Source of the DNA: a virus
Lineage: Duplodnaviria > Heunggongvirae > Uroviricota > Caudoviricetes
DNA length: 64,000 nucleotides
Virus record (IMG/VR): IMGVR_UViG_3300037087_000772
Location: 1 to 64,000 of that record
Direction: 5' to 3' (one strand)
Shown: positions 3,777 through 46,154 of the stretch, one piece after another
Numbering within the stretch: the first letter of the stretch is position 1
How the letters are laid out: each line of letters starts with the position of its first letter
The notes under the pieces: model-generated
The model's input: the letters and a program-made list of their open reading frames with translations, nothing else
Database searches by the model: none
What the model was told of the DNA's origin: nothing
Translations under genes and position numbers: made by a program

Positions 3777-4653
3777 TTATTTTTTAGAATGATGATTGTG
3801 TGGTTCAACATGAATAGTCACATCAGTAAAGGGTTGAACCTTTTTTATTTTTTCTTCTAAATCATCAGATATTTCATGTGCCTCAACCAATGTAATACAT
3901 CCAACATGAATGGTGACATCAACATAGTAGATATGTCCAGATTGTCTTATTTTAAATCCATGATAACATTTAATATCATCTCCATAATTCTTTATGACAT
4001 CTTCAATATCTTTAGCTACATCAAAGGGTACTTTATCAAGTAAAGAATCTACGGCTTTTCTTCCAAGTCGGTATGATACATGAATAACAATCAATGCGAC
4101 AAACAAAGCGGCAACGGAGTCAGCATAGAACAACCATCTCATACCAACCAACTTACCTATCGTCACACATATCAAACCGAAAAGAACAACCGATGAACTC
4201 CATATGTCTGTTGAAAAATGAATGGCGTCGGCTTCCAATGCTGGACTGTTGTATTTTTTAGCTGTCCTATGAAGTTTACGGGATCTCCAAAGATGTTATG
4301 ACGATGATATAACTGAATACACTTATCTTTATATCAACATTTCCATTGATTAATCGGTGAATAGATTCCCAACAAATCCAGAAACAGGTTATAAACAGAA
4401 GGAATGTTTCAATTAGGGCTGAAAAATTTTCAATCTTACCATGTCCATAATGATGATCCTTATCGGCCTCTTTAACTGACGCCTTGACAGCATATAAGGT
4501 AATCAAAGCGGCGACTAAATCCAATCCCGAATGGAGTGCCTCGGATAAAATACCCAAACTGTTTGTCCAAGTTCCTATCCCCAATTTAAATGTGGTTAGA
4601 AAAATGGCCGCAAATACAGAAATGAGAGCTACTTTTCGTTTCTCGTGTTTCAT
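3777..4653 (-). pseudogene. cation diffusion facilitator (CDF/CzcD-like) metal efflux transporter split into two ORFs by a frameshift
   Basis: ORF 4276..4653(-) encodes the TM1-4 part of a CDF protein (HSGLDLVAALITL…HHYGHGKIE). ORF 3777..4238(-) encodes TM5-6 plus the cytoplasmic C-terminal domain (FYADSVAALFVALIV…HVEPH). Together they make one CDF protein interrupted around 4238..4276. Confidence 0.5.
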
Positions 4654-8224: not shown

Positions 8225-8358
8225 AATATTGATATATTATTTTCTATTATGTATATATTAAAACAATTTTTAAAACTTTTTTCGGCTTCCGATGATATAA
8301 TATTCAACCAGTAAGCCGAAAATGGTGAAAAGAGTAGGCAATTTTAATACACAAATTA

Positions 8359-28005: not shown

Positions 28006-28890
28006 ATGGAATGGGATGCAATAAAATGGGCACAAACCTATAAAACTTCAAATCTTAACAGAAGAAAAGAACTTTTGATTGATGTTTGGGAAAACACGAT
28101 TAAAATCGTTAAGAATGGAAAATACTTCTCGGATGGAGAAGTTATCATTGACAACTCGAAAGTGTGCCAGAACTCTTTATTTACTGAAAATGGCCCAATT
28201 TATGACCCAACGGGGATAAATGACTTTAAAACTGAAATATTGGTCATGGATGCTGATTGTTTGGATGTAGCAAGAACGATGGAAAATCCGATAGTTTTAA
28301 ATATGGCCAGTTATAAGAATCCCGGTGGTGGTGTAATAAATGGTTCATCGGCACAGGAAGAAAATTTATTCAGAAGAACCAATTTATTTAAATCTCTTTA
28401 TCAATATGTTGATTATGCTCATCAGTATGGAATAGAACAAAATTCTAAATACAAATATCCATTGGGTGATTATGGTGCAATCTATTCAAAAGATATAACC
28501 GTTTTTCGTGGTTCTGAAAAAAATGGATATTATTTACTCTCCCATCCATTCAAATGTGCTTTTATATCTGTACCTGCAATAAAAAGACCAGAATTGAAGA
28601 ATAGAAGAATGAATGAAAATGACTTCTCCAAAACCAAACAAAAAATAAGAAGGATTTTTCAATTCGCTCATGAGAATGGACATAGAGATTTAGTTCTTTC
28701 CGCTTTTGGTTGTGGTGCTTATGGAAATCCACCCGAACAGATAGCTTCAATCTTTAAAGAATTATTAGATACTGAATATAAAGGGGTTTTTCATAAGATA
28801 GTATTCGCTATCTATGATGATCATAACTCATATAAAGAACACAATCCAGATGGAAATTTAAAACCATTCAAGAAAATATTTAATATATAA
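28006..28890 (+). CDS. bacterial-type poly(ADP-ribose) glycohydrolase-like macrodomain protein (DUF2263/PARG)
   Basis: 294 aa; LNMASYKNPGGGVINGSSAQEENLFRR carries the PARG signature GGG-X7-QEE; C-terminal LVLSAFGCGAYGNPPE. Confidence 0.7.
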   Translation: MEWDAIKWAQTYKTSNLNRRKELLIDVWENTIKIVKNGKYFSDGEVIIDNSKVCQNSLFTENGPIYDPTGINDFKTEILVMDADCLDVARTMENPIVLNMASYKNPGGGVINGSSAQEENLFRRTNLFKSLYQYVDYAHQYGIEQNSKYKYPLGDYGAIYSKDITVFRGSEKNGYYLLSHPFKCAFISVPAIKRPELKNRRMNENDFSKTKQKIRRIFQFAHENGHRDLVLSAFGCGAYGNPPEQIASIFKELLDTEYKGVFHKIVFAIYDDHNSYKEHNPDGNLKPFKKIFNI

Positions 28891-28897
28891 TCACATT

Positions 28898-29482
28898 ATG
28901 ACAAATTTATACATTGATGAATTGGATTTCGAAGATGATGAAAATATCAAAATTATTGATTTTCCAATAACAAGACAAGCCTATTCATATACTTGTGGTT
29001 GTGATATAGTAGAAAGAACAATGGAATTTTATGGTGAAAATTTTCGTGAATCTGATTTAGTTGAAATTTTGAAAACTAACGAAGAAGAAGGAACACTTGT
29101 AAAAAACATAGTGAAATTTTTTCATTATCATGATCTAAAGACTGAATTACAACAAGATATGACAATTGATGATCTGATTAAATATGTGGATAAGAACATT
29201 CCAGTAATTGTTTTGATACAAGCTTGGGGAACTGATTTTAAATTCAAAAGAAAATATAAAGAAACTTGGGGAGATGGACATTTTGTGGCTGTAATTGGAT
29301 ACACAGATAAACTTTTATTAATTAGTGATCCGTCTTTATTTAATGTCGGATATATACCAAAATCTGAATTTATGAACAGATGGCATGACATTGATGATGG
29401 ACTTGAAACATATCAACTCGGATTGGCTGTTTTTGGAAGAAAAGCAATATTTGATAAAGATAAGTTAGAAAGAGTCAGATGA
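28898..29482 (+). CDS. papain-like cysteine peptidase, C39-like domain
   Basis: 194 aa; ITRQAYSYTCGCDIVERTM supplies the Gln and Cys nucleophile; WGDGHFVAVIGYTDKLLLISDP supplies the His, as in Peptidase_C39_2. Confidence 0.45.
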   Translation: MTNLYIDELDFEDDENIKIIDFPITRQAYSYTCGCDIVERTMEFYGENFRESDLVEILKTNEEEGTLVKNIVKFFHYHDLKTELQQDMTIDDLIKYVDKNIPVIVLIQAWGTDFKFKRKYKETWGDGHFVAVIGYTDKLLLISDPSLFNVGYIPKSEFMNRWHDIDDGLETYQLGLAVFGRKAIFDKDKLERVR

Positions 29483-29914: not shown

Positions 29915-30242
29915 AAATGAATTTAATTGGGATAATTTCTGGAAAGAATATCATGATTTTGAATTGGATAAAAGAAAATCCGAATCTATTGAGACAGGTT
30001 TAAGTTTTTTAGATAATTTATTTAAGAAAGGAATATCCAAGAATAAAATAACTATTATAACTGGAAAATCCGAATATAATTATAATTATTTATCAGAATT
30101 CGTGGATTTATATAATTCAAGACAAAATAATACATTTAAAGTGTTTTTTGGAAATGACACAGATATATTAGAAGCCAGATTAATAAATTACATAAGATCT
30201 GAAAAACTCAATGATATTTTGAATGATGGATTTCCTGGATAA
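29907..30242 (+). CDS. small-paralogue family member (FLDNLF…YIRSEKLNDILND)
   Basis: 111-aa ORF. Confidence 0.4.
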   Translation: MNENEFNWDNFWKEYHDFELDKRKSESIETGLSFLDNLFKKGISKNKITIITGKSEYNYNYLSEFVDLYNSRQNNTFKVFFGNDTDILEARLINYIRSEKLNDILNDGFPG

Positions 30243-30594
30243 ATTTTTGATCGGAAAATCTGAATCTATGATTCAGGATGTTAATAATATTAGAAATGAT
30301 ATTATTGAGATTGATGATGAAACCTTAGAATTTTTAAATGAAGAGAATCAAAGATATTCTCGTGAAATGGATTTTGACTATATCCCACCACCTTATAAAC
30401 CACTATTCGGAGAAACGATTTTAGGAATTAGACTATGGCACGAACATTCTTGTGAATTATTTACAACTGAGTTTAATCTGGAAAATATTAATGTTAGTGG
30501 ATTAGCAACTCGTGTTTTTCGTGGAATTGATTTAGTTGCAAAACTACAAAATCATATTAGATACAAAAAATTAGAAAAAATATTAAATGATTGA
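30223..30594 (+). CDS. small-paralogue family member (FLDKFLIGKS…IRYKKLEKILND)
   Basis: 123 aa; clear paralogue of 30587..30985. Confidence 0.45.
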   Translation: MMDFLDKFLIGKSESMIQDVNNIRNDIIEIDDETLEFLNEENQRYSREMDFDYIPPPYKPLFGETILGIRLWHEHSCELFTTEFNLENINVSGLATRVFRGIDLVAKLQNHIRYKKLEKILND

Positions 30595-30985
30595 TATGAA
30601 TTTTTTAGATAAATTTTTGATTGGGAAATCGGTTGAACCAGATATTAAAAATCATATTTGGTGTAATTTATTTGAAACCAATGAAAAAGATATTGATGGA
30701 ATTTTGGAATTTTTATCTCAAGAAAATAAAAAATATTGTGAAGAAATGAATTGGGATTCATGGAAATTTAATTATAGAAAACCAAAATTCGGGGAAACAA
30801 TAATCGGAATTGGAACAAAAAGTGCAGCTGGTACTGAAATGTATAATTCTTGTTATATAATTACAACTGACTTTATGAATAGACCAGATGGATTCGTATC
30901 TCATTGTTATTCGGGTCATGAAATATCAGAAAAAATACAAAATTTCATTAGATCTCAAAAATTAAAATCGTTGTTAAATGATTGA
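30587..30985 (+). CDS. small-paralogue family member (FLDKFLIGKS…IRSQKLKSLLND)
   Basis: 132 aa; the stop overlaps the MTase start (ATGATTGA). Confidence 0.45.
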   Translation: MIDMNFLDKFLIGKSVEPDIKNHIWCNLFETNEKDIDGILEFLSQENKKYCEEMNWDSWKFNYRKPKFGETIIGIGTKSAAGTEMYNSCYIITTDFMNRPDGFVSHCYSGHEISEKIQNFIRSQKLKSLLND

Positions 30986-31712
30986 TATAAATAAAATATA
31001 TTTCGATAATTGTTTACATCTAATGCCTGATATTGATACTCATATTGTTGATATGATTCTTGCTGATTTACCATACGGAGTCACAAGAAACAAGAAAGAT
31101 ATTATGATCCCATTTGAATTACTCTGGAAGAACTACAATCGAATTATAAAACCGAATGGATGTATTGCTTTATTCGCTCAGGGAATGTTCGCTCACAAAC
31201 TTGCTTTATCTAATGAGAAAATGTATCGTTATGATTTGATATGGAAAAAAGGAGAAAGGGTCACTGGATTTTTAAATGCAAAAAAACAAATACTTAGAAA
31301 CCATGAGCAAATTTTGATTTTCTATAAAAAACAACCAACTTACCATCCACAATTTACAGAGGGGACACCTCAGCATTCAAAAGGTAACGCTTTTTCTTTC
31401 AAAGAAGGAAAAAATCAAAATTATGGTTATTTTGATTCGAAAATTCCAGATATAAGAAAAGGAACTACACAAAAATATCCGAAAAGTGTTTTAAACTTCG
31501 AAAAACCTTGGCCACCTGTACATAGAACCCAAAAACCAGTAAAATTGTGTGAATGGTTAATATTGACCTTTACGAATCCCGGAGAATTAGTACTGGATAA
31601 CACTTGTGGTATTGGAACAACCTGTATAGCAGCTAAGAATACAGGAAGAAATTTCATAGGAATTGAAAATGATGAAGAATTTTATAATATGGATTATTAT
31701 CATTTGTTATGA
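30978..31712 (+). CDS. DNA methyltransferase, N6-adenine/N4-cytosine family (beta class: motif IV before motif I)
   Basis: 244 aa; ILADLPYG is a motif IV variant of DPPY; C-terminal LVLDNTCGIGTTCIAAKNTGRNFIGIENDEEF is the motif I FxGxG region typical of the N6_N4_Mtase family. Confidence 0.7.
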   Translation: MIDINKIYFDNCLHLMPDIDTHIVDMILADLPYGVTRNKKDIMIPFELLWKNYNRIIKPNGCIALFAQGMFAHKLALSNEKMYRYDLIWKKGERVTGFLNAKKQILRNHEQILIFYKKQPTYHPQFTEGTPQHSKGNAFSFKEGKNQNYGYFDSKIPDIRKGTTQKYPKSVLNFEKPWPPVHRTQKPVKLCEWLILTFTNPGELVLDNTCGIGTTCIAAKNTGRNFIGIENDEEFYNMDYYHLL

Positions 31713-32216
31713 ATAAATATTAGAATCATCTATATCCCAACTTCCATCATTTTTAATATTCTTAATATAATTCGGGTAAAACATAATAAAATCTTTTCTA
31801 ATTACATCAATATCAGTATTGGACTTTTCAATAATTATACCATCATAATTTAACAATATCTTATTCTTTATATTAATTATCTCACTCTTCCATTCCTTAA
31901 CATCATTCATATAATCAAACCAAGTTTCATAAATCTTTGGATTTTCTATTTTCAAATAAACTTTTAAAATTTTCGGATTTAATTTATTGTGTGTAAAAAC
32001 TTTAGCAACCTTTAATGATTCAGTAAACCAACACCCTTTACTACAATCAAATATTTTATCAATAGTTGATTTATAATATTCACCTGTTCCGTGATAAGCA
32101 ATTAATGGATGATTATTTTCATCTACGACTTTACTTTCATCAAACCATTTATAAAAATTAGGATTTAAATTTTTATATTCTTCAAACATTTTTAGATATT
32201 TCATAGAATTTACCAT
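31707..32216 (-). CDS. hypothetical protein
   Basis: 169-aa ORF. Confidence 0.4.
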   Translation of the reverse strand: MVNSMKYLKMFEEYKNLNPNFYKWFDESKVVDENNHPLIAYHGTGEYYKSTIDKIFDCSKGCWFTESLKVAKVFTHNKLNPKILKVYLKIENPKIYETWFDYMNDVKEWKSEIINIKNKILLNYDGIIIEKSNTDIDVIRKDFIMFYPNYIKNIKNDGSWDIDDSNIYS

Positions 32217-33530
32217 CTTTTAGTATTAGATATCTTAAAATCTTTTATTCTATTTAAATTTTCTTCGGTTGGCATAGGATCTACATTGAATTTCTTCTTA
32301 AATTCACGCCTCGATATTCCCCAACTTTCATATCCTTTCGAATCTAAATTATTAAATACGATTCCACCACTTGTATTACTTCTCCAAACATACTGAGATT
32401 CTATTCTTATTCCATCTAATTCATAGTTGGCCTTTTTATCATCATGATCGAAGAATTGAACCGATAATGGACTATTTGCTCCGATCCAATAATCGCCATC
32501 CACAATTTCTATATCATCTATGGTAAATTTGTAATTTACTGGAATTTCTATGATATATTCTTTTTCTTTTTTACCAGAAACATAATCTACTTCTCCAAAA
32601 AATTCTTCTGTCTTTGGTGAAGTGACTATTTTTACCTTAGTCGGATCAACTCTCAAAATAATACCCTCTTTATTTGCGAAATAAGCAGCTATATCCCTTG
32701 ATTCGGTAAAAGATAAGAATTTTCCATCCGATATTTTTGACATTCCTTTCTCAACGATAAATTGAATCAAATTATCAATGAAAGTTTTGACCCAAGTAGT
32801 ATGTTTATCATCAATCCCTTTAGCTTGTTCTTGTGATACTTTTCTTAATTGTTCAATTTCTTTACCTTTTAATCCTTGGAATACCCTTATTCCCCTATAT
32901 AAATTCTTTGGAAGTTTCGGTTTATCTTTTTTTATTTTATAATGGTGATAGAAGGAATATAACCAAACATATTGAACTATGTTATTAACTTTCTTAATTG
33001 ATAAATTATTTGTTATCGTATAGGCTGGAATACCATCAAAATCAACCCATCTTTTCACGACATCCTTGTGGAGATCAAAATCATATTTAGTACTTTTAGG
33101 GTTTGTATTTTTAATTTTTTCAAGATCCGTAAATCTATTTAAAAATCTAAGTCCATTTGTAGAATTCACATCACCAAACACATTTCTACTTTCTAATCCA
33201 CCAGAGGCAACAATTAACATAGCTGTTTGTTGTCTGAGATCTTTAAAAATGCTAGCTCCCTCCTTTGGAATTTTTTGTCCTATCTGAGCGACAGTATGTA
33301 ATAAAGATTTACTAACTGAATCCTTCCAATTAAGAATCATATTCTCTCTGATTTGAGTATATTTATTAAAGTCCATTCCCATCAAATTAACGAGTTCTTC
33401 TTCAGTATTAAAACCAGTTTTTATGGAATTTTTTAACTTTTCCTTAAATTCTGACCAATCAGTAAATTTTATCGAATCATTGAATTGACCATATCTTTCA
33501 TTCAAAAATTCTGAGAATGAATACAACATA
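32210..33530 (-). CDS. hypothetical protein; candidate R-S-E class mono-ADP-ribosyltransferase (Alt-like?)
   Basis: The ORF track extends to 33919, but a TTAATATATA promoter motif at 33547..33556 lies 16 nt upstream of the internal ATG at 33530 (MLYSFSEF…). Ordered motifs NLYRGIRV (Arg), FLSFTESRDIA (S-T-S-like) and KKEKEYIIEIP (ExE followed by hydrophobics) have the spacing seen in ADP-ribosyltransferases. Confidence 0.4.
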
Positions 33531-33584: not shown

Positions 33585-33860
33585 ATGTCAAATGGACAAA
33601 ACAAAAAAGAGATTATGAAAAAAATTATAGTATTTTTGATGTTAATGTTTATTGGAAGTATAACATTAGCTGATGGAGACAAATCAACAAAATCAGAAGT
33701 AATTATTACCACTACTATAACAAAAGAAATCAACATTGATATATTGAAGCCAATAGTACCATTGGAAGCCACCTTTGATGAGGATTCTCTTGATTCGATT
33801 AATATATATTCTTTAAGACCAACAACCCCAAAAGAAGCAACCTTTGATGATGAAAAATAA
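33585..33860 (+). CDS. small putative secreted protein with signal peptide and a PxEATFDxD duplication
   Basis: 91 aa; MKKIIVFLMLMFIGSITLA then …PLEATFDEDS…PKEATFDDE. Confidence 0.3.
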   Translation: MSNGQNKKEIMKKIIVFLMLMFIGSITLADGDKSTKSEVIITTTITKEINIDILKPIVPLEATFDEDSLDSINIYSLRPTTPKEATFDDEK

Positions 33861-34122
33861 AGATCTAAATGATGATTTTTTAAAAAACCTTTTTCAAAAA
33901 ACACCAGAATGTTGTCCATCTGATGATTTTGTAGAAAAGGTTATGAATGCTTGTTGTACCGTTGAAGTAAAACAAACATTCAATATTTTTGTGTGGTTAA
34001 GAGAAAAACAATCTAAGCTGGTGATAAGTATGACTACTGGTATAATACATTCTTTCGATAATATGTTGAAAGACTATAAACTGGTCACTCAAATTCCCCA
34101 ACCAATTCAGCAATCAATTTAG
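33844..34122 (+). CDS. small hypothetical protein
   Basis: 92-aa ORF opposite in orientation to its neighbours. Confidence 0.25.
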   Translation: MMMKNKDLNDDFLKNLFQKTPECCPSDDFVEKVMNACCTVEVKQTFNIFVWLREKQSKLVISMTTGIIHSFDNMLKDYKLVTQIPQPIQQSI

Positions 34123-35560
34123 ATTCCTCACTTTTTAATTCATCCAGAACAGCCCCATCTTTTAACATGAATTTTTTATATTTCTGTCTATCGTCATAGA
34201 TAAGGCTCATAACCTGATTTACTACTCCAATTTCATTACGGAATACAGCCCCATTTAATAGAACAATGTCGGTTGGTTCAATTTCAATTTTCTTATTATT
34301 GAATATGGCATATTTCTTATCACTCGAAATGATACCTTTATAACTATCGACAGAGATATTGAACATTATCATACAGGTTGGATACAAACTCTTAAAGTCA
34401 TAACAGGGTGTCCAATGGCTCATACCTTTAACTGGTTCTTTAACATAACCACCCAAAACACCTTCAACATCCACTACATTTTCAGAACGGTCTAATCTAC
34501 AAAGAACAACATTCTTCTCTTTTTTCAGTTTTCTTCTTAAAATTCCCTCTGTTACAGGTAAGGTACTGTATGAATCCCCAATTTTTACTCTCGAAAGAGT
34601 TGAAATACCATATAAAATATTGATCAATTTTGTCTTTTCATGAATCTTTTGAACAAGTACGGAGTCAACCGCGTTATAATAAACGAATTTCTTATAATCT
34701 GTATTATATAAGGTTTTAAGACTTCCTTCATAATTAACTTTCTTAACTCCAAGAACATTATCAGATACGAAGTCCAGACTAATTGATTCCTTAACTCTAA
34801 TGGATGTATCCCATTTTTTGAATAGTTCCATATAGTCAACAACCATTCGATGAGCTGGTAATTCACAATATGTCTTTTTTTCCATATCCCAAGGTTCTCT
34901 CAGTAATTTTGTTACTGAAGCTACACTCGGATCTATTCCAAGTTTACGAGCTCTATTAACAAGAAAAACCCAGTCATATTCGGTAAAATTCCAACCAGTT
35001 AAAACTGGCATTCTCGGAACAAATTTCACAAAGAAATTCAATAACATTTCATATTCACTTTTGAAATGAATATATTTGAACTGATAAATAGTTCCGAATT
35101 TGGCGAAATAATTATTTATATCTTCTTCAATGGATTTGGAAATAACTTCAGATAATTCCTGAGTCCCCATTACCAGAACTTTATCTTTATTGACAATGGA
35201 AATGGATTGTATGGCACTTTCAGCTAAATGAGGAGCTGGTTTTTTGTCTATAATTTCATTTTCAATATCGATGAAAAATATATCAGGTTCATTATATTGA
35301 AAAATAATATCCTGTTCTTCCTGAGGTAATTCATCTATGTAATCATAGACGGAATAACGATTTGGATTTTTGGTGGGAACTGATTTAACTGATCGCCCAT
35401 CCCATGTAACATACTTTCCATCTCTTTGATGGTCATCGTCATCACAGGTAATATATTTGGTGGCATTGGGCCACTTATAATATCTTAATTTTACTTGTTT
35501 ACTACTATCTACATGAGATACAATAAGTGTATTATTTCTGTATTCGTAATCTACTAACAA
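34085..35560 (-). CDS. family-B DNA polymerase, N-terminal fragment (3'-5' exonuclease domain plus palm motif A); split gene (gp43A-like)
   Basis: 491 aa. Exo I FFIDIENEI (DxE); Exo II YYNAVDSVL; motif A LGGYVKEPVKGMSHWTPCYDFKSLYPTCMI (DxxSLYP). No motif B (KxxxNSxYG) or motif C (YGDTDS) before the stop at 34085, and downstream frames are not polymerase-like. Confidence 0.7.
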   Translation of the reverse strand: MLVDYEYRNNTLIVSHVDSSKQVKLRYYKWPNATKYITCDDDDHQRDGKYVTWDGRSVKSVPTKNPNRYSVYDYIDELPQEEQDIIFQYNEPDIFFIDIENEIIDKKPAPHLAESAIQSISIVNKDKVLVMGTQELSEVISKSIEEDINNYFAKFGTIYQFKYIHFKSEYEMLLNFFVKFVPRMPVLTGWNFTEYDWVFLVNRARKLGIDPSVASVTKLLREPWDMEKKTYCELPAHRMVVDYMELFKKWDTSIRVKESISLDFVSDNVLGVKKVNYEGSLKTLYNTDYKKFVYYNAVDSVLVQKIHEKTKLINILYGISTLSRVKIGDSYSTLPVTEGILRRKLKKEKNVVLCRLDRSENVVDVEGVLGGYVKEPVKGMSHWTPCYDFKSLYPTCMIMFNISVDSYKGIISSDKKYAIFNNKKIEIEPTDIVLLNGAVFRNEIGVVNQVMSLIYDDRQKYKKFMLKDGAVLDELKSEESKLIAELVGEFE

Positions 35561-35599: not shown

Positions 35600-36007
35600 T
35601 TAGACTTTTATATCCAAATCTTTAACCTTTTGTTTTAATAATTTTGGAAAAAGTTTCATTTGTACCCAGAAATCATTTTCAAGATCATCATATTCTTTCA
35701 AGTCATATTCGGCTTCTAATATCATATTATTAATCTTTTCATCCTTGGGTAAATCATTCAACTTTTTTAATATTATTTTAATATTATTCTTTTGTGTTTG
35801 AATTGTTGAATATGTATTAAAAAAAGATGGAAAATCATTATTGATTTTTTTGGAATTTATAAGGTCATTCAATACTCCACATTTCTCATATTCTTCAGTT
35901 TCTATGAATATTTTATATGAATAAATCAGATCTTGCTCGTTTAACAAAAACTTATTTTCTTTTATAAGCAATATAATATAATTCGCTATATCTAATTCTT
36001 TATCCAT
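35600..36007 (-). CDS. hypothetical protein, paralogue of 36155..36619
   Basis: 135 aa; …KENKFLLNEQDLIYSYKIFIETEEYEKCGVLNDLI aligns with …TVSEKDLIFAYNYFLELEEYEKCSILNEFI of the neighbouring ORF. Confidence 0.4.
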   Translation of the reverse strand: MDKELDIANYIILLIKENKFLLNEQDLIYSYKIFIETEEYEKCGVLNDLINSKKINNDFPSFFNTYSTIQTQKNNIKIILKKLNDLPKDEKINNMILEAEYDLKEYDDLENDFWVQMKLFPKLLKQKVKDLDIKV

Positions 36008-36154: not shown

Positions 36155-36619
36155 TCATTTTTCAGATTTTTCTATTTCGTCAATTTCTTTTTGTTTCAAT
36201 ATGATAAGATTATCTATTTCTTTCAATTCATTTTTTATTTTTATCATCTCTTTTATATCTTCTTGAATAGAATGAATATTATCCCAAAAATCTTTTTCGT
36301 ACTTTTGAAGATCATTCAATATTTTTTCAATTTTCAATATAAGATTCTTTTTATCTTCGAAATCCTCTGAATTTTTTAATTCATTAAGATCTTTTAATTG
36401 TCTATTACATATATTTCTCTGTTCATTGATCCATGTATATTCATCAATATATGATTCCTCCTCACTATCGAATTCTTTAATCTTTATGAATTCATTCAAA
36501 ATAGAGCATTTTTCATATTCCTCTAATTCGAGGAAATAATTATATGCAAAAATTAAATCCTTTTCACTTACAGTTGTAACCTTTGATAATGAAAAAATGA
36601 AATTTATTAATTCGTTCAT
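36155..36619 (-). CDS. hypothetical coiled-coil protein, paralogue of 35600..36007
   Basis: 154-aa ORF. Confidence 0.4.
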   Translation of the reverse strand: MNELINFIFSLSKVTTVSEKDLIFAYNYFLELEEYEKCSILNEFIKIKEFDSEEESYIDEYTWINEQRNICNRQLKDLNELKNSEDFEDKKNLILKIEKILNDLQKYEKDFWDNIHSIQEDIKEMIKIKNELKEIDNLIILKQKEIDEIEKSEK

Positions 36620-43697: not shown

Positions 43698-46154
43698 TTA
43701 GTATCTGTTAAGAACATTTTTCATATGCTCAACTTGTTCATCAGAAAGTGAATAATTATCGTATGTATTTATGTTTTCATTCAATACTTTCTTTCCTGTG
43801 TTAGCTTGTGCATATTGTAGAAGATCTCTGGTTAACCAGAATGATTCTACTTTTTTCTCCGTAGTTAAGTCAGTATAGAATTGTGCTGTATCTAAAATAC
43901 TTTCTTGTACTTTCGGATTTAATTTTTCCCAAATTGGCTGTAAGTCACTTGGAATATTTTCAACCAATGTTTCATTTAATGATCTGGTTGGTTTGAACAA
44001 TGCTTTCTGCATTAATATAAGAACATCACTTTCGTTTGAATAATTTCCCTTGTTTTCGTTCATGACAAAGTTTACTTTTTCCTTATCTTCTGGAGTTAAA
44101 CCATAATAAGCGGCTTTCTTCTTTTCAGGTAAGAATAATAAGAAGTGAGGATCTTCTGTCTTAGCGGCTTCGCGTTTTTTAGCGGCTTCGATGAGTTTCT
44201 TTATGTCTTTTGTTATCTGATTCGTATTTTCGTAAATTTTGGTTGTACCTAAAATTGTAAGTCTACTTTCTTCGACTTCAACTTCTTCGCCAGTATCTCC
44301 CATTTTTACAACTACAATTTTTGTAGTATCATCTGTTGCGAGAACTTCACCTGTACGAGTTGGTTCTTCAGTAGCTCCTTCAGTACCTTCTGGTTGTGCT
44401 GTTTCTTCATCTTTATCTCCCTTAACAGTAACAATCATACCCGGAGTAATACCTAAACCTGTTTCTTCTTGTGGTGGAACTTCCTCAGTATTTACACCTT
44501 CAGCATCCTGAGCTGGTGTTTCTTCTACTGGTGGTGTTTCACCTTGTACTGGTGCTTCCTGAGCTGGTTTTTCTTCAGCTGGAGGTGTTTCCTGAGCCGG
44601 TTCTTCAACCTTAGGTTCTTCTGTTGCACCATCTGCTGGTTTTTCTTCTGGTTTATCTTCATAATAATTTGAAGGATCATCAGTTGTCATATCACCAATG
44701 GCTTCAGTAACACCTAATTTCTCAACAACTCTCTTTGTGTAGTCAATGTGTCTATCAATGACTTCTGCTTCATATTTTTGATAAGCGATAGAATCGGTAA
44801 GATTTTCAGCCAACATTTCTGAATAACGGATACCGTTATCAGTTTGTTCTGCTACATATTCACCATATCTGATAGCGTTATCTACATGCTCGGCGATGTA
44901 TTGAGTATAATCAACAATCTTTTCTGCACTTTCACTGATGTAATCGGCGTAATCAACAAGATTGTCAACCGTTTCGGCTACATATTCAGCGTACATAATG
45001 TTCTTATCGAGATGTTCTGCGATATAATCAGCGTAATCAGCTATCTTATCAAAGTTTTCAGCGATGTATTCACTATATTTAATAGTGTTTTCAGTCTGTT
45101 CAGCTACATATTCGATAAAACTAATACCGTTATCTAACTTTTCAGCGATGTATTTTTGATAATCAATAACTTGGTCGGTTGTACCTGCTAAATAATCAAT
45201 ATAACCAATTGTTTTTTCGACTGCTTCTGCGATGTGGTCGTTGTGTTCGATAATGAGTTTTGTTTTTTCTTTGTTTTTCTCAACTCTTTCTTCCAGTTTG
45301 TCGTTTGTTTTCTTCAACTGTTTGTTTTCTTGAACTAAAACATTAATCGCGTCTGCTATCTGATCAAGATATTCGGCCATTCTTTTTTGACCCTCGGATA
45401 ATGTTTCGAATTCTTCATAAAGGCGAGAGAGTTTTTCCGGATCGAAATTCTTTGAATTAAGAGTTTCTTCAATGGAATTTTTTGTTTTCAATAACTCACT
45501 GTCTAAATAGGATTTGAACTCTTCCAATTTTGTCTGAGTTCCAATTTCGTTTTTTTCCATATTGAACAATTCATTTATTTTTGACTCCTCAGATATATCG
45601 AATATCCTGAAGTTTAAATTTTCATTGAATCCCAATGATTCATTCATGTTTTTCAATTCCATTCGGGCTGAACTAAATCCGGGGTCTGCAACACAATCAT
45701 AGGTGAATAACTTTTTAATTGTTACTTCACCATTCGATTCTGTTACACCGGCAGCTCTACTGGAAACGAAAATAGGTAGGTCATCATCTACAAGAGCTTG
45801 TGCTTCCTTTCCATAAAAGGTATTAGTTAATTTAATTTCTCCATCAACTCTATTGGTTTCCTTTATAAACCAAGCATTTTGAATTGTATGAGAAATACGA
45901 GTTAAGCTAGTATCAAATACATCTGGATGATCAAACTCTCCATAGACAACTTTTAACAGTTTTTTTCTTTCTAATAATTCACTAAGATGGGGTAAGAATT
46001 TCTCTGCGGTGTAAATCCTGTCATTTCTATTTCTAATATTGAATTCTGTAAAAATACCCTTCATGATATATAGGATATTACCCTTACTACTTACGACCTC
46101 ATTGATTTTCTCCAGACCACCCAATGTATTATCAATTATTATTACATTTTTCAT
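43698..46154 (-). CDS. prohead core protease (T4 gp21/S77-like N-terminal domain) fused to a repeat-rich acidic scaffold (gp22-like) region
   Basis: 818 aa. N-terminal …YIMKGIFTEFNIRNRNDRIYTAEKF… resembles the prohead protease family. The central ~180 aa has about 10-12 tandem 14-aa repeats (xYxEYVAExxDxxI). It is followed by a Pro/Glu/Thr-rich acidic linker and a C-terminal domain. Confidence 0.6.
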   Translation of the reverse strand: MKNVIIIDNTLGGLEKINEVVSSKGNILYIMKGIFTEFNIRNRNDRIYTAEKFLPHLSELLERKKLLKVVYGEFDHPDVFDTSLTRISHTIQNAWFIKETNRVDGEIKLTNTFYGKEAQALVDDDLPIFVSSRAAGVTESNGEVTIKKLFTYDCVADPGFSSARMELKNMNESLGFNENLNFRIFDISEESKINELFNMEKNEIGTQTKLEEFKSYLDSELLKTKNSIEETLNSKNFDPEKLSRLYEEFETLSEGQKRMAEYLDQIADAINVLVQENKQLKKTNDKLEERVEKNKEKTKLIIEHNDHIAEAVEKTIGYIDYLAGTTDQVIDYQKYIAEKLDNGISFIEYVAEQTENTIKYSEYIAENFDKIADYADYIAEHLDKNIMYAEYVAETVDNLVDYADYISESAEKIVDYTQYIAEHVDNAIRYGEYVAEQTDNGIRYSEMLAENLTDSIAYQKYEAEVIDRHIDYTKRVVEKLGVTEAIGDMTTDDPSNYYEDKPEEKPADGATEEPKVEEPAQETPPAEEKPAQEAPVQGETPPVEETPAQDAEGVNTEEVPPQEETGLGITPGMIVTVKGDKDEETAQPEGTEGATEEPTRTGEVLATDDTTKIVVVKMGDTGEEVEVEESRLTILGTTKIYENTNQITKDIKKLIEAAKKREAAKTEDPHFLLFLPEKKKAAYYGLTPEDKEKVNFVMNENKGNYSNESDVLILMQKALFKPTRSLNETLVENIPSDLQPIWEKLNPKVQESILDTAQFYTDLTTEKKVESFWLTRDLLQYAQANTGKKVLNENINTYDNYSLSDEQVEHMKNVLNRY

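What the first reader, a model, noticed from the sequence alone, without database searches (positions are those of the whole stretch)
34085..35560. Family-B DNA polymerase present only as an N-terminal fragment (split gp43-like gene)
- The ORF has Exo I/II/III and polymerase motif A (DFKSLYPT) but stops before motifs B and C.
- The downstream minus-strand ORF is unrelated; two small opposite-strand ORFs (33585..33860 and 33844..34122) lie at its 3' end.
- Either the polymerase is a bipartite enzyme, as reported for a few T4-like phages (43A/43B), with the second half elsewhere, or an insertion disrupted it.
Basis: partly seen in the sequence, partly recalled or inferred. Interest (0 to 1): 0.55.

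Follow-up and report, generated by a model that had tools for sequence, protein, structure and literature searches.

The report
N-terminal subunit of split phage polymerase
This gene is the intact N-terminal half of a two-piece family-B DNA polymerase in a roughly 736-kb phage; relatives keep the other half as a separate, often distant gene, so it is a known kind of split enzyme and not a broken gene.

Summary
Window 34085-35560 (-) is a 491-aa ORF with the PolB N-terminal domain, the exonuclease motifs, motif A and the first fingers helix. It stops before motifs B and C, and no C-terminal half or remnant of one lies anywhere in the 64-kb window.

It is not an error or a pseudogene:
- The identical protein is on 13 independently assembled contigs.
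- The 119 nearest homologue clusters listed (58-87% identical) are 479-509 aa, apart from one shorter partial sequence.
- 20 relatives stop at the same point.
- All catalytic residues are invariant.

The break lies at the tip of the fingers domain (RB69 gp43 about residue 515). This is the same structural position as the gp43A/gp43B split of Aeromonas phage 44RR.

Relatives encode the C-half (motifs B and C, KKxY, thumb) as its own gene. Its distance from the N-half ranges from 1.2 kb to 281 kb, and it is often on the opposite strand. It carries no intein at its N-terminus.

The most likely mechanism is a non-covalent heterodimer with a composite active site. The N-half supplies the motif A aspartate and the C-half supplies the motif C aspartates.

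I could not locate this phage's own C-half; that is the main gap. This is a new member of a known kind, of moderate interest.

The parts
34085..35560 (-). Gene for the N-terminal subunit of a split family-B DNA polymerase (491 aa, TTG start, TGA stop at 34085-34087). It holds the N-terminal domain, the 3'-5' exonuclease, the first part of the palm with motif A, and the first fingers helix.
   Evidence: aligns to RB69 gp43 residues 183-491; AF2 model; best structural matches are RB69 gp43, TM about 0.6.
35261..35269 (-). Exo I motif, D98-I-E100.
   Evidence: D98 and E100 are invariant in 25 homologues.
34973..34990 (-). Exo II motif, N191-FTEY-D196.
   Evidence: N191, Y195 and D196 invariant.
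34664..34678 (-). Exo III motif, Y295-NAV-D299.
   Evidence: Y295 and D299 invariant.
34379..34399 (-). Polymerase motif A, D388-FKSLYP. It carries one of the catalytic aspartates.
   Evidence: D388, F389, S391, L392, Y393 and P394 invariant.
34166..34189 (-). Basic motif of the first fingers helix, R458-QKYKKF-M465. It corresponds to RB69 NQRKEHKGYM, residues about 480-489.
   Evidence: alignment. R458 and K462 are invariant.
34088..34165 (-). Acidic helical tail of 26 aa (net charge -5) that ends the subunit at the fingers tip. It is inferred to dock on the basic N-terminal helix of the C-half.
   Evidence: tails are 20-29 aa; net charge is -2 to -7 in the 18 relatives 57% or more identical to the window, -4 in LR745206 and 0 in the more distant LR756500 and MA9V-1. 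(continuous helix 446-488). The docking role is inferred, not shown.
33847..34122 (+). Small convergent ORF (91 aa as called) that overlaps the last 38 nt of the polymerase gene. It is a conserved neighbour and not part of the polymerase.
   Evidence: 42% identity in L016; also found in LR756501.
33585..33860 (+). Small ORF with a signal-peptide-like N-terminus (73-91 aa depending on the start). It is a conserved neighbour and not part of the polymerase.
   Evidence: 48% identity in L016; 38% in LR756501.
32210..33529 (-). 439-aa protein of unknown function downstream. It is unrelated to PolB. The 569-aa ORF listed mechanically includes a spurious 5' extension.
   Evidence: (68% identity in L016).

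Best explanation
The ORF encodes the N-terminal subunit of a two-subunit family-B replicative DNA polymerase of a T4-like huge phage with a genome of about 736 kb.

The polypeptide is cut at the tip of the fingers domain. The N-subunit carries the N-terminal domain, the proofreading exonuclease, the motif A strand of the palm and the first fingers helix. A second gene elsewhere in the genome supplies the second fingers helix with motif B, motif C, the KKxY motif and the thumb.

The two proteins are translated separately and assemble non-covalently. The polymerase active site is therefore composite: the motif A aspartate comes from this protein and the motif C aspartates come from the partner.

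The acidic helical tail of the N-subunit probably pairs antiparallel with the basic N-terminal helix of the C-subunit and so rebuilds the fingers hairpin.

Shown here: the gene structure, its conservation, the position of the break, and the existence and intactness of separate C-half genes in relatives.

Inferred: physical assembly, the docking role of the tail, and the presence of the partner in this particular genome.
For: The gene is real and under constraint.
- The identical protein is on 13 contigs from independent samples.
- Of the 119 nearest homologue clusters listed (58-87% identical), all but one partial sequence are 479-509 aa, and none is full length.
- In 20 relatives, ORFs read stop-to-stop all end 20-29 aa after the RKKYKxxM fingers motif.
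- Exo I, II and III, motif A and fingers residues R458 and K462 are invariant in 25 sequences.
- PHROG 2062 is itself a 502-position 'half' profile.

The break lies at the fingers tip.
- The N-half aligns to RB69 gp43 residues 183-491, with 24 more residues after that.
- A C-half profile aligns to RB69 from about residue 518 to 891.
- Pfam DNA_pol_B covers profile positions 20-140 in the N-half and starts at position 128-149 in the two C-halves scanned.

The position matches a biochemically validated split.
- 44RR gp43A (498 aa) ends 23 aa after QRKSEKKM.
- 44RR gp43B starts 46 aa before motif B.
- The split gp43A/gp43B products of the related phage 25 co-purify and have polymerase activity (PMC2988022, citing Petrov et al. 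2010).

Partner genes exist in relatives.
- All six related huge-phage records have a C-half. Five (LR756501/3, LR756502/4, LR745206) have an intact full-length ORF; LR756500 aligned only partially.
- The same holds for MA9V-1, pT24 and the Lak phages (partial alignment).
- Four IMG/VR contigs carry both halves.
- Motif B (K, N, Y, G), motif C (D-T-D) and KKxY are invariant.
- The halves lie 1.2-281 kb apart and are often on opposite strands.

There is no covalent joining machinery.
- The N-half has no intein domain.
- C-halves start with Met followed directly by a helix.
- No Rfam intron is present.

Charge complementarity: tails carry -2 to -7 in the window's close relatives, and the last 30 residues before motif B carry 0 to +4 in the huge-phage C-halves. 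The signs are reversed in 44RR.

The AF2 model of the N-half alone is confident for the N-terminal domain and exonuclease. pLDDT is below 50 for the palm fragment (357-406) and part of the fingers helix, as expected for half-domains that need a partner.

Precedents show that such splits work.
- PhiKZ DNAP-N/DNAP-C forms a stable 1:1 complex, with motif A on one chain and motif C on the other (PMC13648687).
- An engineered split of Pfu polymerase near the fingers tip is active (PMC3061061).
Against: The partner gene of this phage was not found.
- It is not in the 64-kb window or in the 10 kb beyond its left end.
- None of the C-half proteins retrieved lies on the contigs known to carry this phage: ENA k141_203136 (736,551 bp), JGI Ga0334813_000005 (597,284 bp), the WOOD18-1 scaffolds, and Logan SRR23247760 and SRR23247752.
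- The protein index is demonstrably incomplete: the full-length C-half of IMG/VR contig 3300037087_000150 is also missing from it. This absence is therefore weak evidence.

No experiment shows assembly for this clade.

The low pLDDT of the palm fragment could also come from the shallow, closely related alignment.
Confidence: 0.85

Rival explanations
1. The gene is a pseudogene or remnant. A once-contiguous polymerase gene was recently broken by an insertion or rearrangement, and the fragment has no function.
For: The ORF lacks motifs B and C. Unrelated genes follow it.
Against: The stop position is conserved in 20 relatives at 35-75% identity, and the listed homologue clusters are 479-509 aa apart from one partial sequence. 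All catalytic residues are invariant. No homing endonuclease, intein, intron or polymerase remnant lies at the break. The flanking small ORFs are conserved genes.
Confidence: 0.03
2. The truncation is an artefact: an assembly error or sequencing frameshift wrongly separates this ORF from its C-terminal region.
For: None beyond the truncated appearance.
Against: The identical 491-aa product is called on 13 contigs from independent runs and assemblers, spanning Logan, ENA and JGI. The sequence downstream in all frames has no similarity to PolB.
Confidence: 0.01
3. The two halves are joined after synthesis, either by a split intein acting on the proteins (Nanoarchaeum equitans type) or by trans-splicing of the RNAs. 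The mature enzyme would then be one chain.
For: Inteins are active in this gene family. Some relatives carry an intein, or a fractured intein with a free-standing ORF, at motif C of the C-half.
Against: Those inteins sit at DTD|S inside the C-half and not at the N/C break. The N-half ends in a 26-aa variable acidic helix with no intein domain. C-halves begin with Met and a variable helix or a TPR-like extension, with no C-terminal intein block or conserved nucleophile. No intron family was detected in the window.
Confidence: 0.03
4. In this particular phage the C-half has been lost. The N-half would survive as a stand-alone proofreading exonuclease or accessory factor that works with another polymerase.
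For: No C-half could be tied to this phage's contigs. Jumbo phages of this group are reported to carry a second, split minimal Pol III alpha-like enzyme (PMC7824862).
Against: Motif A and the dNTP-binding fingers residues are fully conserved in this sequence and its clade, which a pure exonuclease would not need. Every relative with enough sequence has the C-half. The protein index used for the search is incomplete.
Confidence: 0.05

Closest known systems
Split gene 43 (43A/43B) of Aeromonas phages 44RR2.8t and 25 (Petrov et al. 2010, as summarised in PMC2988022)
   Same: Both are T4-type PolB enzymes cut into an N-subunit of about 490-500 aa and a C-subunit. The break is at the same structural position, 23-26 residues after the R-K-x-x-K-x-x-M fingers helix and 35-80 residues before motif B. 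Each half has its own start and stop. The phage 25 products co-purify and have polymerase activity.
   Different: In 44RR the cistrons are adjacent, 49 nt apart, on one strand. Here the partner is not within at least 28 kb on one side or 44 kb on the other, and in the nearest relatives it lies 50-280 kb away, often on the opposite strand. Sequence identity to gp43A is only 24%. The charges of tail and head are reversed. An independent origin at a permissive site is likely but was not tested by phylogeny.
PhiKZ DNAP-N (gp82) / DNAP-C (gp50) split B-family polymerase (PMC13648687)
   Same: Both have two genes far apart in a jumbo-phage genome. The N-subunit holds the N-terminal domain, the exonuclease and motif A, and the C-subunit holds motif C and the thumb. 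PhiKZ forms a stable 1:1 complex with a composite active site.
   Different: PhiKZ is split inside a large palm-insertion domain, with the whole fingers domain on the C-subunit. Here the cut is at the fingers tip and there is no palm insertion. PhiKZ belongs to a different, very divergent PolB clade and recruits the Rhc subunit.
Split PolB genes of cultured Bacteroidota phages (Chryseobacterium MA9V-1/2, Tenacibaculum pT24), annotated as two 'DNA polymerase' CDSs
   Same: They share the N-half and C-half architecture and the break region, and belong to the same broad lineage (28% identity). Their hosts are in the same phylum as the Prevotella host of the related Lak phages; the window phage's own host is not established.
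   Different: In those phages the halves are 1.2-2.2 kb apart on one strand, with two small genes between. Flavobacterium phage MaF61, among the same set of hits, has an unsplit 994-aa gene.
Archaeal split PolB: Methanothermobacter PolB1/PolB2, and the Nanoarchaeum equitans split-intein PolB (from my own knowledge, not checked here)
   Same: The family-B polymerase is encoded by two separated genes.
   Different: These are a different lineage. The N. equitans halves are ligated by a split intein, and no intein is present at this break.
Engineered split of Pfu polymerase near the fingers tip (PMC3061061)
   Same: It shows that a family-B polymerase tolerates a termination-reinitiation break near the fingers tip and stays active.
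   Different: It is an artificial construct in an archaeal enzyme, with adjacent coding segments.

Membership tests
Family-B DNA polymerase, T4 gp43-like | 3'-5' exonuclease motifs Exo I (DxE), Exo II (Nx2-3F/YD) and Exo III (Yx3D) | tested here: met
   D98/E100, N191/D196 and Y295/D299 are all invariant in 25 homologues.
Family-B DNA polymerase, T4 gp43-like | Polymerase motif A (DxxSLYPS) | tested here: met
   D388-FKSLYP; invariant.
Family-B DNA polymerase, T4 gp43-like | Motifs B (Kx3NSxYG) and C (YxDTDS) and the thumb on the same polypeptide | tested here: not met
   They are absent from the ORF and from the whole window. In relatives a separate gene supplies them. The ORF is therefore one subunit and not a complete PolB.
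Two-subunit gp43A/gp43B-type split PolB (44RR/25) | The N-terminal cistron ends and the C-terminal cistron begins at the fingers tip, each with its own stop and start | tested here: met
   the tail is 26 aa after RQKYKKFM, against 23 aa after RKSEKKMM in 44RR. Huge-phage C-halves start 34-81 aa before motif B, against 46 aa in 44RR.
Two-subunit gp43A/gp43B-type split PolB (44RR/25) | The partner cistron lies immediately downstream, separated by a short intercistronic untranslated sequence | tested here: not met
   The downstream sequence holds two convergent small ORFs and an unrelated 439-aa gene. No C-half lies in the window or in the 10 kb to its left.
Two-subunit gp43A/gp43B-type split PolB (44RR/25) | A partner C-half gene is present in the same genome | tested here: inconclusive
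   It is present in all 6 related huge-phage records (partial alignment only in LR756500), in 4 IMG/VR contigs carrying both halves, and in MA9V-1, pT24 and Lak. It was not located for this phage.
Two-subunit gp43A/gp43B-type split PolB (44RR/25) | The subunits form a complex with polymerase activity | not testable with these tools
   This needs co-expression and biochemistry.
Split-intein trans-spliced PolB (N. equitans type) | An N-terminal intein fragment at the C-terminus of the N-half and a C-terminal intein fragment at the N-terminus of the C-half | tested here: not met
   The N-half has no intein Pfam hit and its tail is a 26-aa acidic helix. C-half heads are helices or a TPR-like motif. 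Inteins in relatives sit at motif C and not at this break.
PhiKZ-type DNAP-N/DNAP-C | The split lies within a palm-insertion domain, with the fingers entirely on the C-subunit | tested here: not met
   Here the first fingers helix is on the N-half. The PhiKZ description comes from PMC13648687.
Pseudogene or decaying fragment | Variable truncation points, loss of catalytic residues, and no conservation as an independent ORF | tested here: not met

The most novel reading that the evidence does not exclude
This phage has lost the C-half. Its N-half would persist as a free-standing proofreading exonuclease and clamp-binding module that serves a different polymerase, for example the split minimal Pol III alpha-like enzyme reported in this group of jumbo phages. 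A milder and more probable version is that the partner exists. In that case the two (or, with fractured inteins, three) pieces are scattered over more than 50 kb in different transcription units, and assembly of the replicase through a dedicated acidic-tail/basic-head (plus TPR-like) docking module is a regulated step.
Probability: 0.05. Interest if true: 0.7.

Novelty: new member of a known kind. Interest (0 to 1): 0.4.

Why it matters
This matters in four ways.

- Annotation: half-length PolB ORFs in huge phages should not be called pseudogenes, fragments or misassemblies.
- Scale: a very large, environmentally widespread clade of T4-like huge phages runs its replicase as an obligate heterodimer. 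More than 100 sequence clusters of the N-half were found.
- Evolution and structure: the subunit genes drift freely around genomes of 0.5-0.7 Mb, from 1 kb to 281 kb apart and on either strand. The cut point coincides with that of Aeromonas phage 44RR and with an engineered Pfu split. This marks the fingers tip as a generally permissive and possibly recurrent fission site in family-B polymerases.
- Enzyme engineering: the charge-complementary tail and head helices are a natural design for split-polymerase reassembly.

Tried and rejected
Locating this phage's own C-half:
- I searched with the LR756501 C-half and the IMG/VR 3300037087_000150 C-half, enumerated clusters, and looked up candidate proteins.
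- P0030 looked promising because its contigs reach 643 kb. It lies on GROS21-1 scaffolds, whereas the window's phage lies on k141_203136, Ga0334813_000005 and WOOD18-1 scaffolds. I rejected it as the partner.
- P0021, P0026, P0175 and P0176 come from other samples.
- Extension by 10 kb to the left found no PolB. Two right-edge ORFs are not on record.
- An identity calibration on contigs carrying both halves predicts a partner about 57-63% identical to the LR756501 C-half. That points to the clade of L045, P0020, P0021 and P0023, but this is only a prediction.

Readings considered and rejected:
- A degenerate C-half or mobile-element remnant next to the break.
- An intron.
- A terminator or promoter signal at the break; nothing exceeded shuffled controls.
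- An intein at the N/C junction.

I did not compute dN/dS, because the closest relatives with DNA in hand are only about 74% identical at the protein level.
Full report
**What is at the locus**

Window 34085-35560 on the minus strand is a single ORF of 491 aa with a TTG start. The only nearby ATG is out of frame. Relatives align from residue 1, and independent gene calls give the same 491-aa product.

Pfam finds DNA_pol_B_exo1 and only the first part of DNA_pol_B, profile positions 20-140 of 453. PHROGs gives 2.3e-68 to phrog_2062. That profile is only 502 positions long, so it is itself a family of half polymerases. The ORF also matches positions 103-497 of the 856-position phrog_262.

The motifs are:
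- Exo I: D98-I-E100.
- Exo II: N191..D196.
- Exo III: Y295..D299.
- Motif A: D388-FKSLYP.

The window contains no motif B or C. I tested this three ways:
- regular expressions over six frames;
- tblastn with seven C-halves and one unsplit relative (the MA9V-1 C-half alone);
- a C-half profile HMM run with --max over every stop-to-stop segment (best E = 0.29).

**Genomic setting**

The window is AT-rich, about 29% GC. It carries T4-type structural genes: gp23 major capsid, gp20 portal and prohead protease.

The nearest database records are metagenomic huge phages of 462-735 kb: LR756500-504 and LR745206. After those come the Prevotella Lak megaphages and cultured Bacteroidota phages.

The capsid protein of the window is found with an identical sequence on several contigs:
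- ENA ERZ27254251:k141_203136 (736,551 bp);
- JGI Ga0334813_000005 (597,284 bp);
- WOOD18-1 scaffolds;
- several Logan contigs.

The source is therefore a phage of about 0.74 Mb.

**Not an artefact and not a pseudogene**

The exact 491-aa protein is on 13 contigs from independent runs and assemblers.

A search of 5.8 billion protein clusters returned 1,158 homologues. Of the 119 nearest clusters listed besides the query's own (58-87% identity), all are 479-509 aa except one 359-aa partial sequence, and none is full length.

In 20 relatives I read the ORF stop-to-stop. Every one ends 20-29 residues after the conserved fingers motif R-K-K-Y-K-x-x-M.

In an alignment of 25 homologues, the catalytic and substrate-binding residues are invariant: D98, E100, N191, D196, Y295, D299, D388, S391, L392, Y393, P394, R458 and K462.

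**Where the protein is cut**

The N-half aligns to RB69 gp43 residues 183-491. The alignment ends in ...VFNQRKEHKGYMLA, and 24 further residues follow in the N-half.

A profile of C-halves aligns to RB69 from about residue 518 through 891.

By the published RB69 domain boundaries (fingers 469-572; my own knowledge of Wang et al. 1997 and Franklin et al. 2001), the break is at the tip of the fingers hairpin.

The AF2 model of the N-half alone (mean pLDDT 74.6) shows three regions:
- a confident N-terminal domain and exonuclease (blocks mostly 85-97);
- a palm fragment (357-406) with pLDDT below 50;
- a final uninterrupted helix, 446-488.

The best structural matches are RB69 gp43, with TM about 0.6. 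Low confidence in the half-domains fits a need for a partner. The shallow alignment could also explain it.

**The partner gene in relatives**

Separate C-half ORFs of 408-566 aa were read from the huge-phage records. They were aligned with metagenomic homologues and with those of MA9V-1 and pT24.

The following are invariant:
- motif B (K, N, Y, G);
- motif C (D-T-D-S);
- a second K of the KKxY motif, together with Y.

The arrangements found are listed below.

| Phage or contig | N-half | C-half | Separation and orientation |
|---|---|---|---|
| 44RR2.8t | 43A | 43B | 49 nt apart |
| pT24 | - | - | 1.2 kb, two genes between |
| MA9V-1 | - | - | 2.2 kb, two genes between |
| Lak-B2 | - | - | C about 7 kb upstream of N, same strand |
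| IMG/VR 3300009776_000433 and 3300025715_000021 | - | - | C 7.8 kb upstream of N, same strand |
| LR756500 | - | - | C about 13 kb downstream of N |
| IMG/VR 3300025858_000010 | - | - | about 51 kb, opposite strands |
| IMG/VR 3300042261_001186 | - | - | about 81 kb, opposite strands |
| LR745206 | 232,803-234,338 (+) | 130,571-131,944 (-) | 101 kb |
| LR756502 | - | - | 132 kb, opposite strands |
| LR756504 | - | - | 281 kb, opposite strands |
| LR756501 (nearest complete relative; N-half 67% identical) | 90,194-91,693 (-) | 709,334-711,034 (+) | 618 kb in the linear record, or about 115 kb across its ends |

Flavobacterium phage MaF61 has an unsplit 994-aa gene.

The fission is therefore old and fixed in a large clade. 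The two genes behave as independent units that genome rearrangement has moved around.

**Comparison with 44RR**

44RR gp43A (498 aa) ends ...QRKSEKKMMLAAIRNQEAIKKILASRGVKLDH. 44RR gp43B (391 aa) begins MELELFRDFNEEEL... and reaches motif B after 46 residues.

The cut is at the same structural place as in the window protein, within a few residues, although the proteins share only 24% identity.

The review PMC2988022 summarises Petrov et al. 2010:
- Phage 25 adds a seg-like homing endonuclease gene.
- The 43A and 43B products of phage 25 co-purify and have polymerase activity.

That review's Aeh1 example is a split nrdA, not gene 43.

**Mechanism**

Motif A, with one catalytic aspartate, is on the N-half. 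Motif C is on the C-half. Neither protein can polymerise alone, so the enzyme must be a heterodimer with a composite active site.

Nothing suggests covalent joining:
- There is no intein domain in the N-half.
- The tails and heads vary in sequence and length.
- C-halves start with Met followed by a helix.
- There is no Rfam intron in the window.

The N-half tails are leucine-spaced helices of 20-29 aa. Net charge is -2 to -7 in the relatives 57% or more identical to the window, and -5 in the window itself. It is -4 in LR745206 and 0 in the more distant LR756500 and MA9V-1.

The 30 residues before motif B carry a net charge of 0 to +4 in the huge-phage C-halves. In 44RR the signs are reversed, with the tail at +3 and an acidic start to the head.

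I infer that the tail and head extend the two antiparallel fingers helices into a charge-complementary zipper. This would supplement the interface made by completing the palm sheet.

Two precedents show that such enzymes function:
- the 2.1-A PhiKZ DNAP-N/DNAP-C complex (PMC13648687);
- the active Pfu polymerase split near the fingers tip (PMC3061061).

**The break region**

Two small plus-strand ORFs are convergent with the polymerase gene, and one overlaps its last 38 nt. They are followed by a 439-aa minus-strand gene.

All three are conserved in the relative L016, at 48%, 42% and 68% identity. The small pair also occurs in LR756501.

None of them hits polymerase, intein or endonuclease families. 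They are ordinary neighbours and not the scar of an insertion.

**What I could not do**

I did not find the C-half of this very phage.

Candidate C-halves retrieved from the protein index lie on other phages' contigs. The index is incomplete: it lacks the full-length C-half of IMG/VR contig 3300037087_000150, which I read directly.

Look-ups are restricted to window proteins.

I calibrated N-half against C-half identities on contigs that carry both. N-halves are 70-78% identical where C-halves are 68-75% identical. This predicts a partner about 57-63% identical to the LR756501 C-half, which points to the clade of L045, P0020, P0021 and P0023.

This remains the decisive open check. A small probability remains that the partner has been lost.

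**Verdict**

This is a real, conserved N-terminal subunit of a split T4-type family-B polymerase. It is cut at the fingers tip as in 44RR gp43A/B, and the partner gene is dispersed elsewhere in a genome of about 0.74 Mb.

It is a new member of a known kind. What is noteworthy is the size of the clade, the extreme and variable separation of the two genes, and the recurrence of the same fission point.

Noticed in passing
L042 733-1866, 1863-3011, 2995-4047 (IMGVR_UViG_3300022555_001101); also L235 29-3379 and L236 3733-7083; P0026 (732 aa): In many relatives the C-half is interrupted at motif C (DTD|S). Some carry a contiguous mini-intein (P0026). Others carry a fractured intein: ORF1 is the extein plus the N-terminal intein part (Pfam Intein_splicing positions 3-95), a free-standing 382-384-aa ORF with no Pfam hit follows, and ORF3 is the C-terminal intein part plus the extein. 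Those phages would build their polymerase from three polypeptides, two of them joined by trans-splicing.
   Followed up: partly
L012 5785-5950, P0030, L045 2501-2650 (N-termini of C-halves of the LR756501-like clade): The C-halves of this clade carry an N-terminal extension of about 50 aa with a single TPR-like motif (Pfam TPR_1, 1.3e-05 in L042 ORF1). The LR745206-like, MA9V-1 and 44RR C-halves lack it. Its role is unknown; it may be a docking element.
   Followed up: partly
window 62180-63991 (-): A 603-aa ORF has the full hybrid histidine kinase architecture: PAS, HisKA, HATPase_c and a response-regulator receiver domain. Pfam E-values are 1e-17 to 4e-23. This is unusual cargo for a phage.
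   Followed up: no
window 8306-8340 (+): An Rfam DUF805b RNA motif (44 bits against a gathering score of 35.6) lies immediately upstream of a 775-aa SPFH/Band-7 domain ORF at 8359-10686.
   Followed up: no
window 28006-28890 (+), 31707-32216 (-), 28898-29482 (+), 30978-31712 (+): A cluster of ADP-ribosylation and modification genes lies near the polymerase gene: a PARG-like glycohydrolase, an ART-PolyVal-like ADP-ribosyltransferase domain, a C39 peptidase and an N6/N4 DNA methyltransferase. The Pfam labels come from the precomputed gene table.
   Followed up: no
window 35600-36007 (-) and 36155-36619 (-); window 30223-30594 (+) and 30587-30985 (+): There are two pairs of tandem paralogous small genes of unknown function, at 35% and 41% identity. 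The first pair sits directly upstream of the polymerase N-half.
   Followed up: partly
window 3777-4238 (-) and about 4276-4653 (-): Two adjacent ORFs both hit Pfam Cation_efflux, and the downstream one also hits ZT_dimer (gene table, L233 13157-14033). This may be another gene split into two cistrons.
   Followed up: no
window 43698-46154 (-): An 818-aa ORF has its N-terminus resembling the T4 prohead core serine protease (Peptidase_S77/S80, weak hits). A long coiled-coil-like extension follows, so it is much larger than T4 gp21.
   Followed up: no
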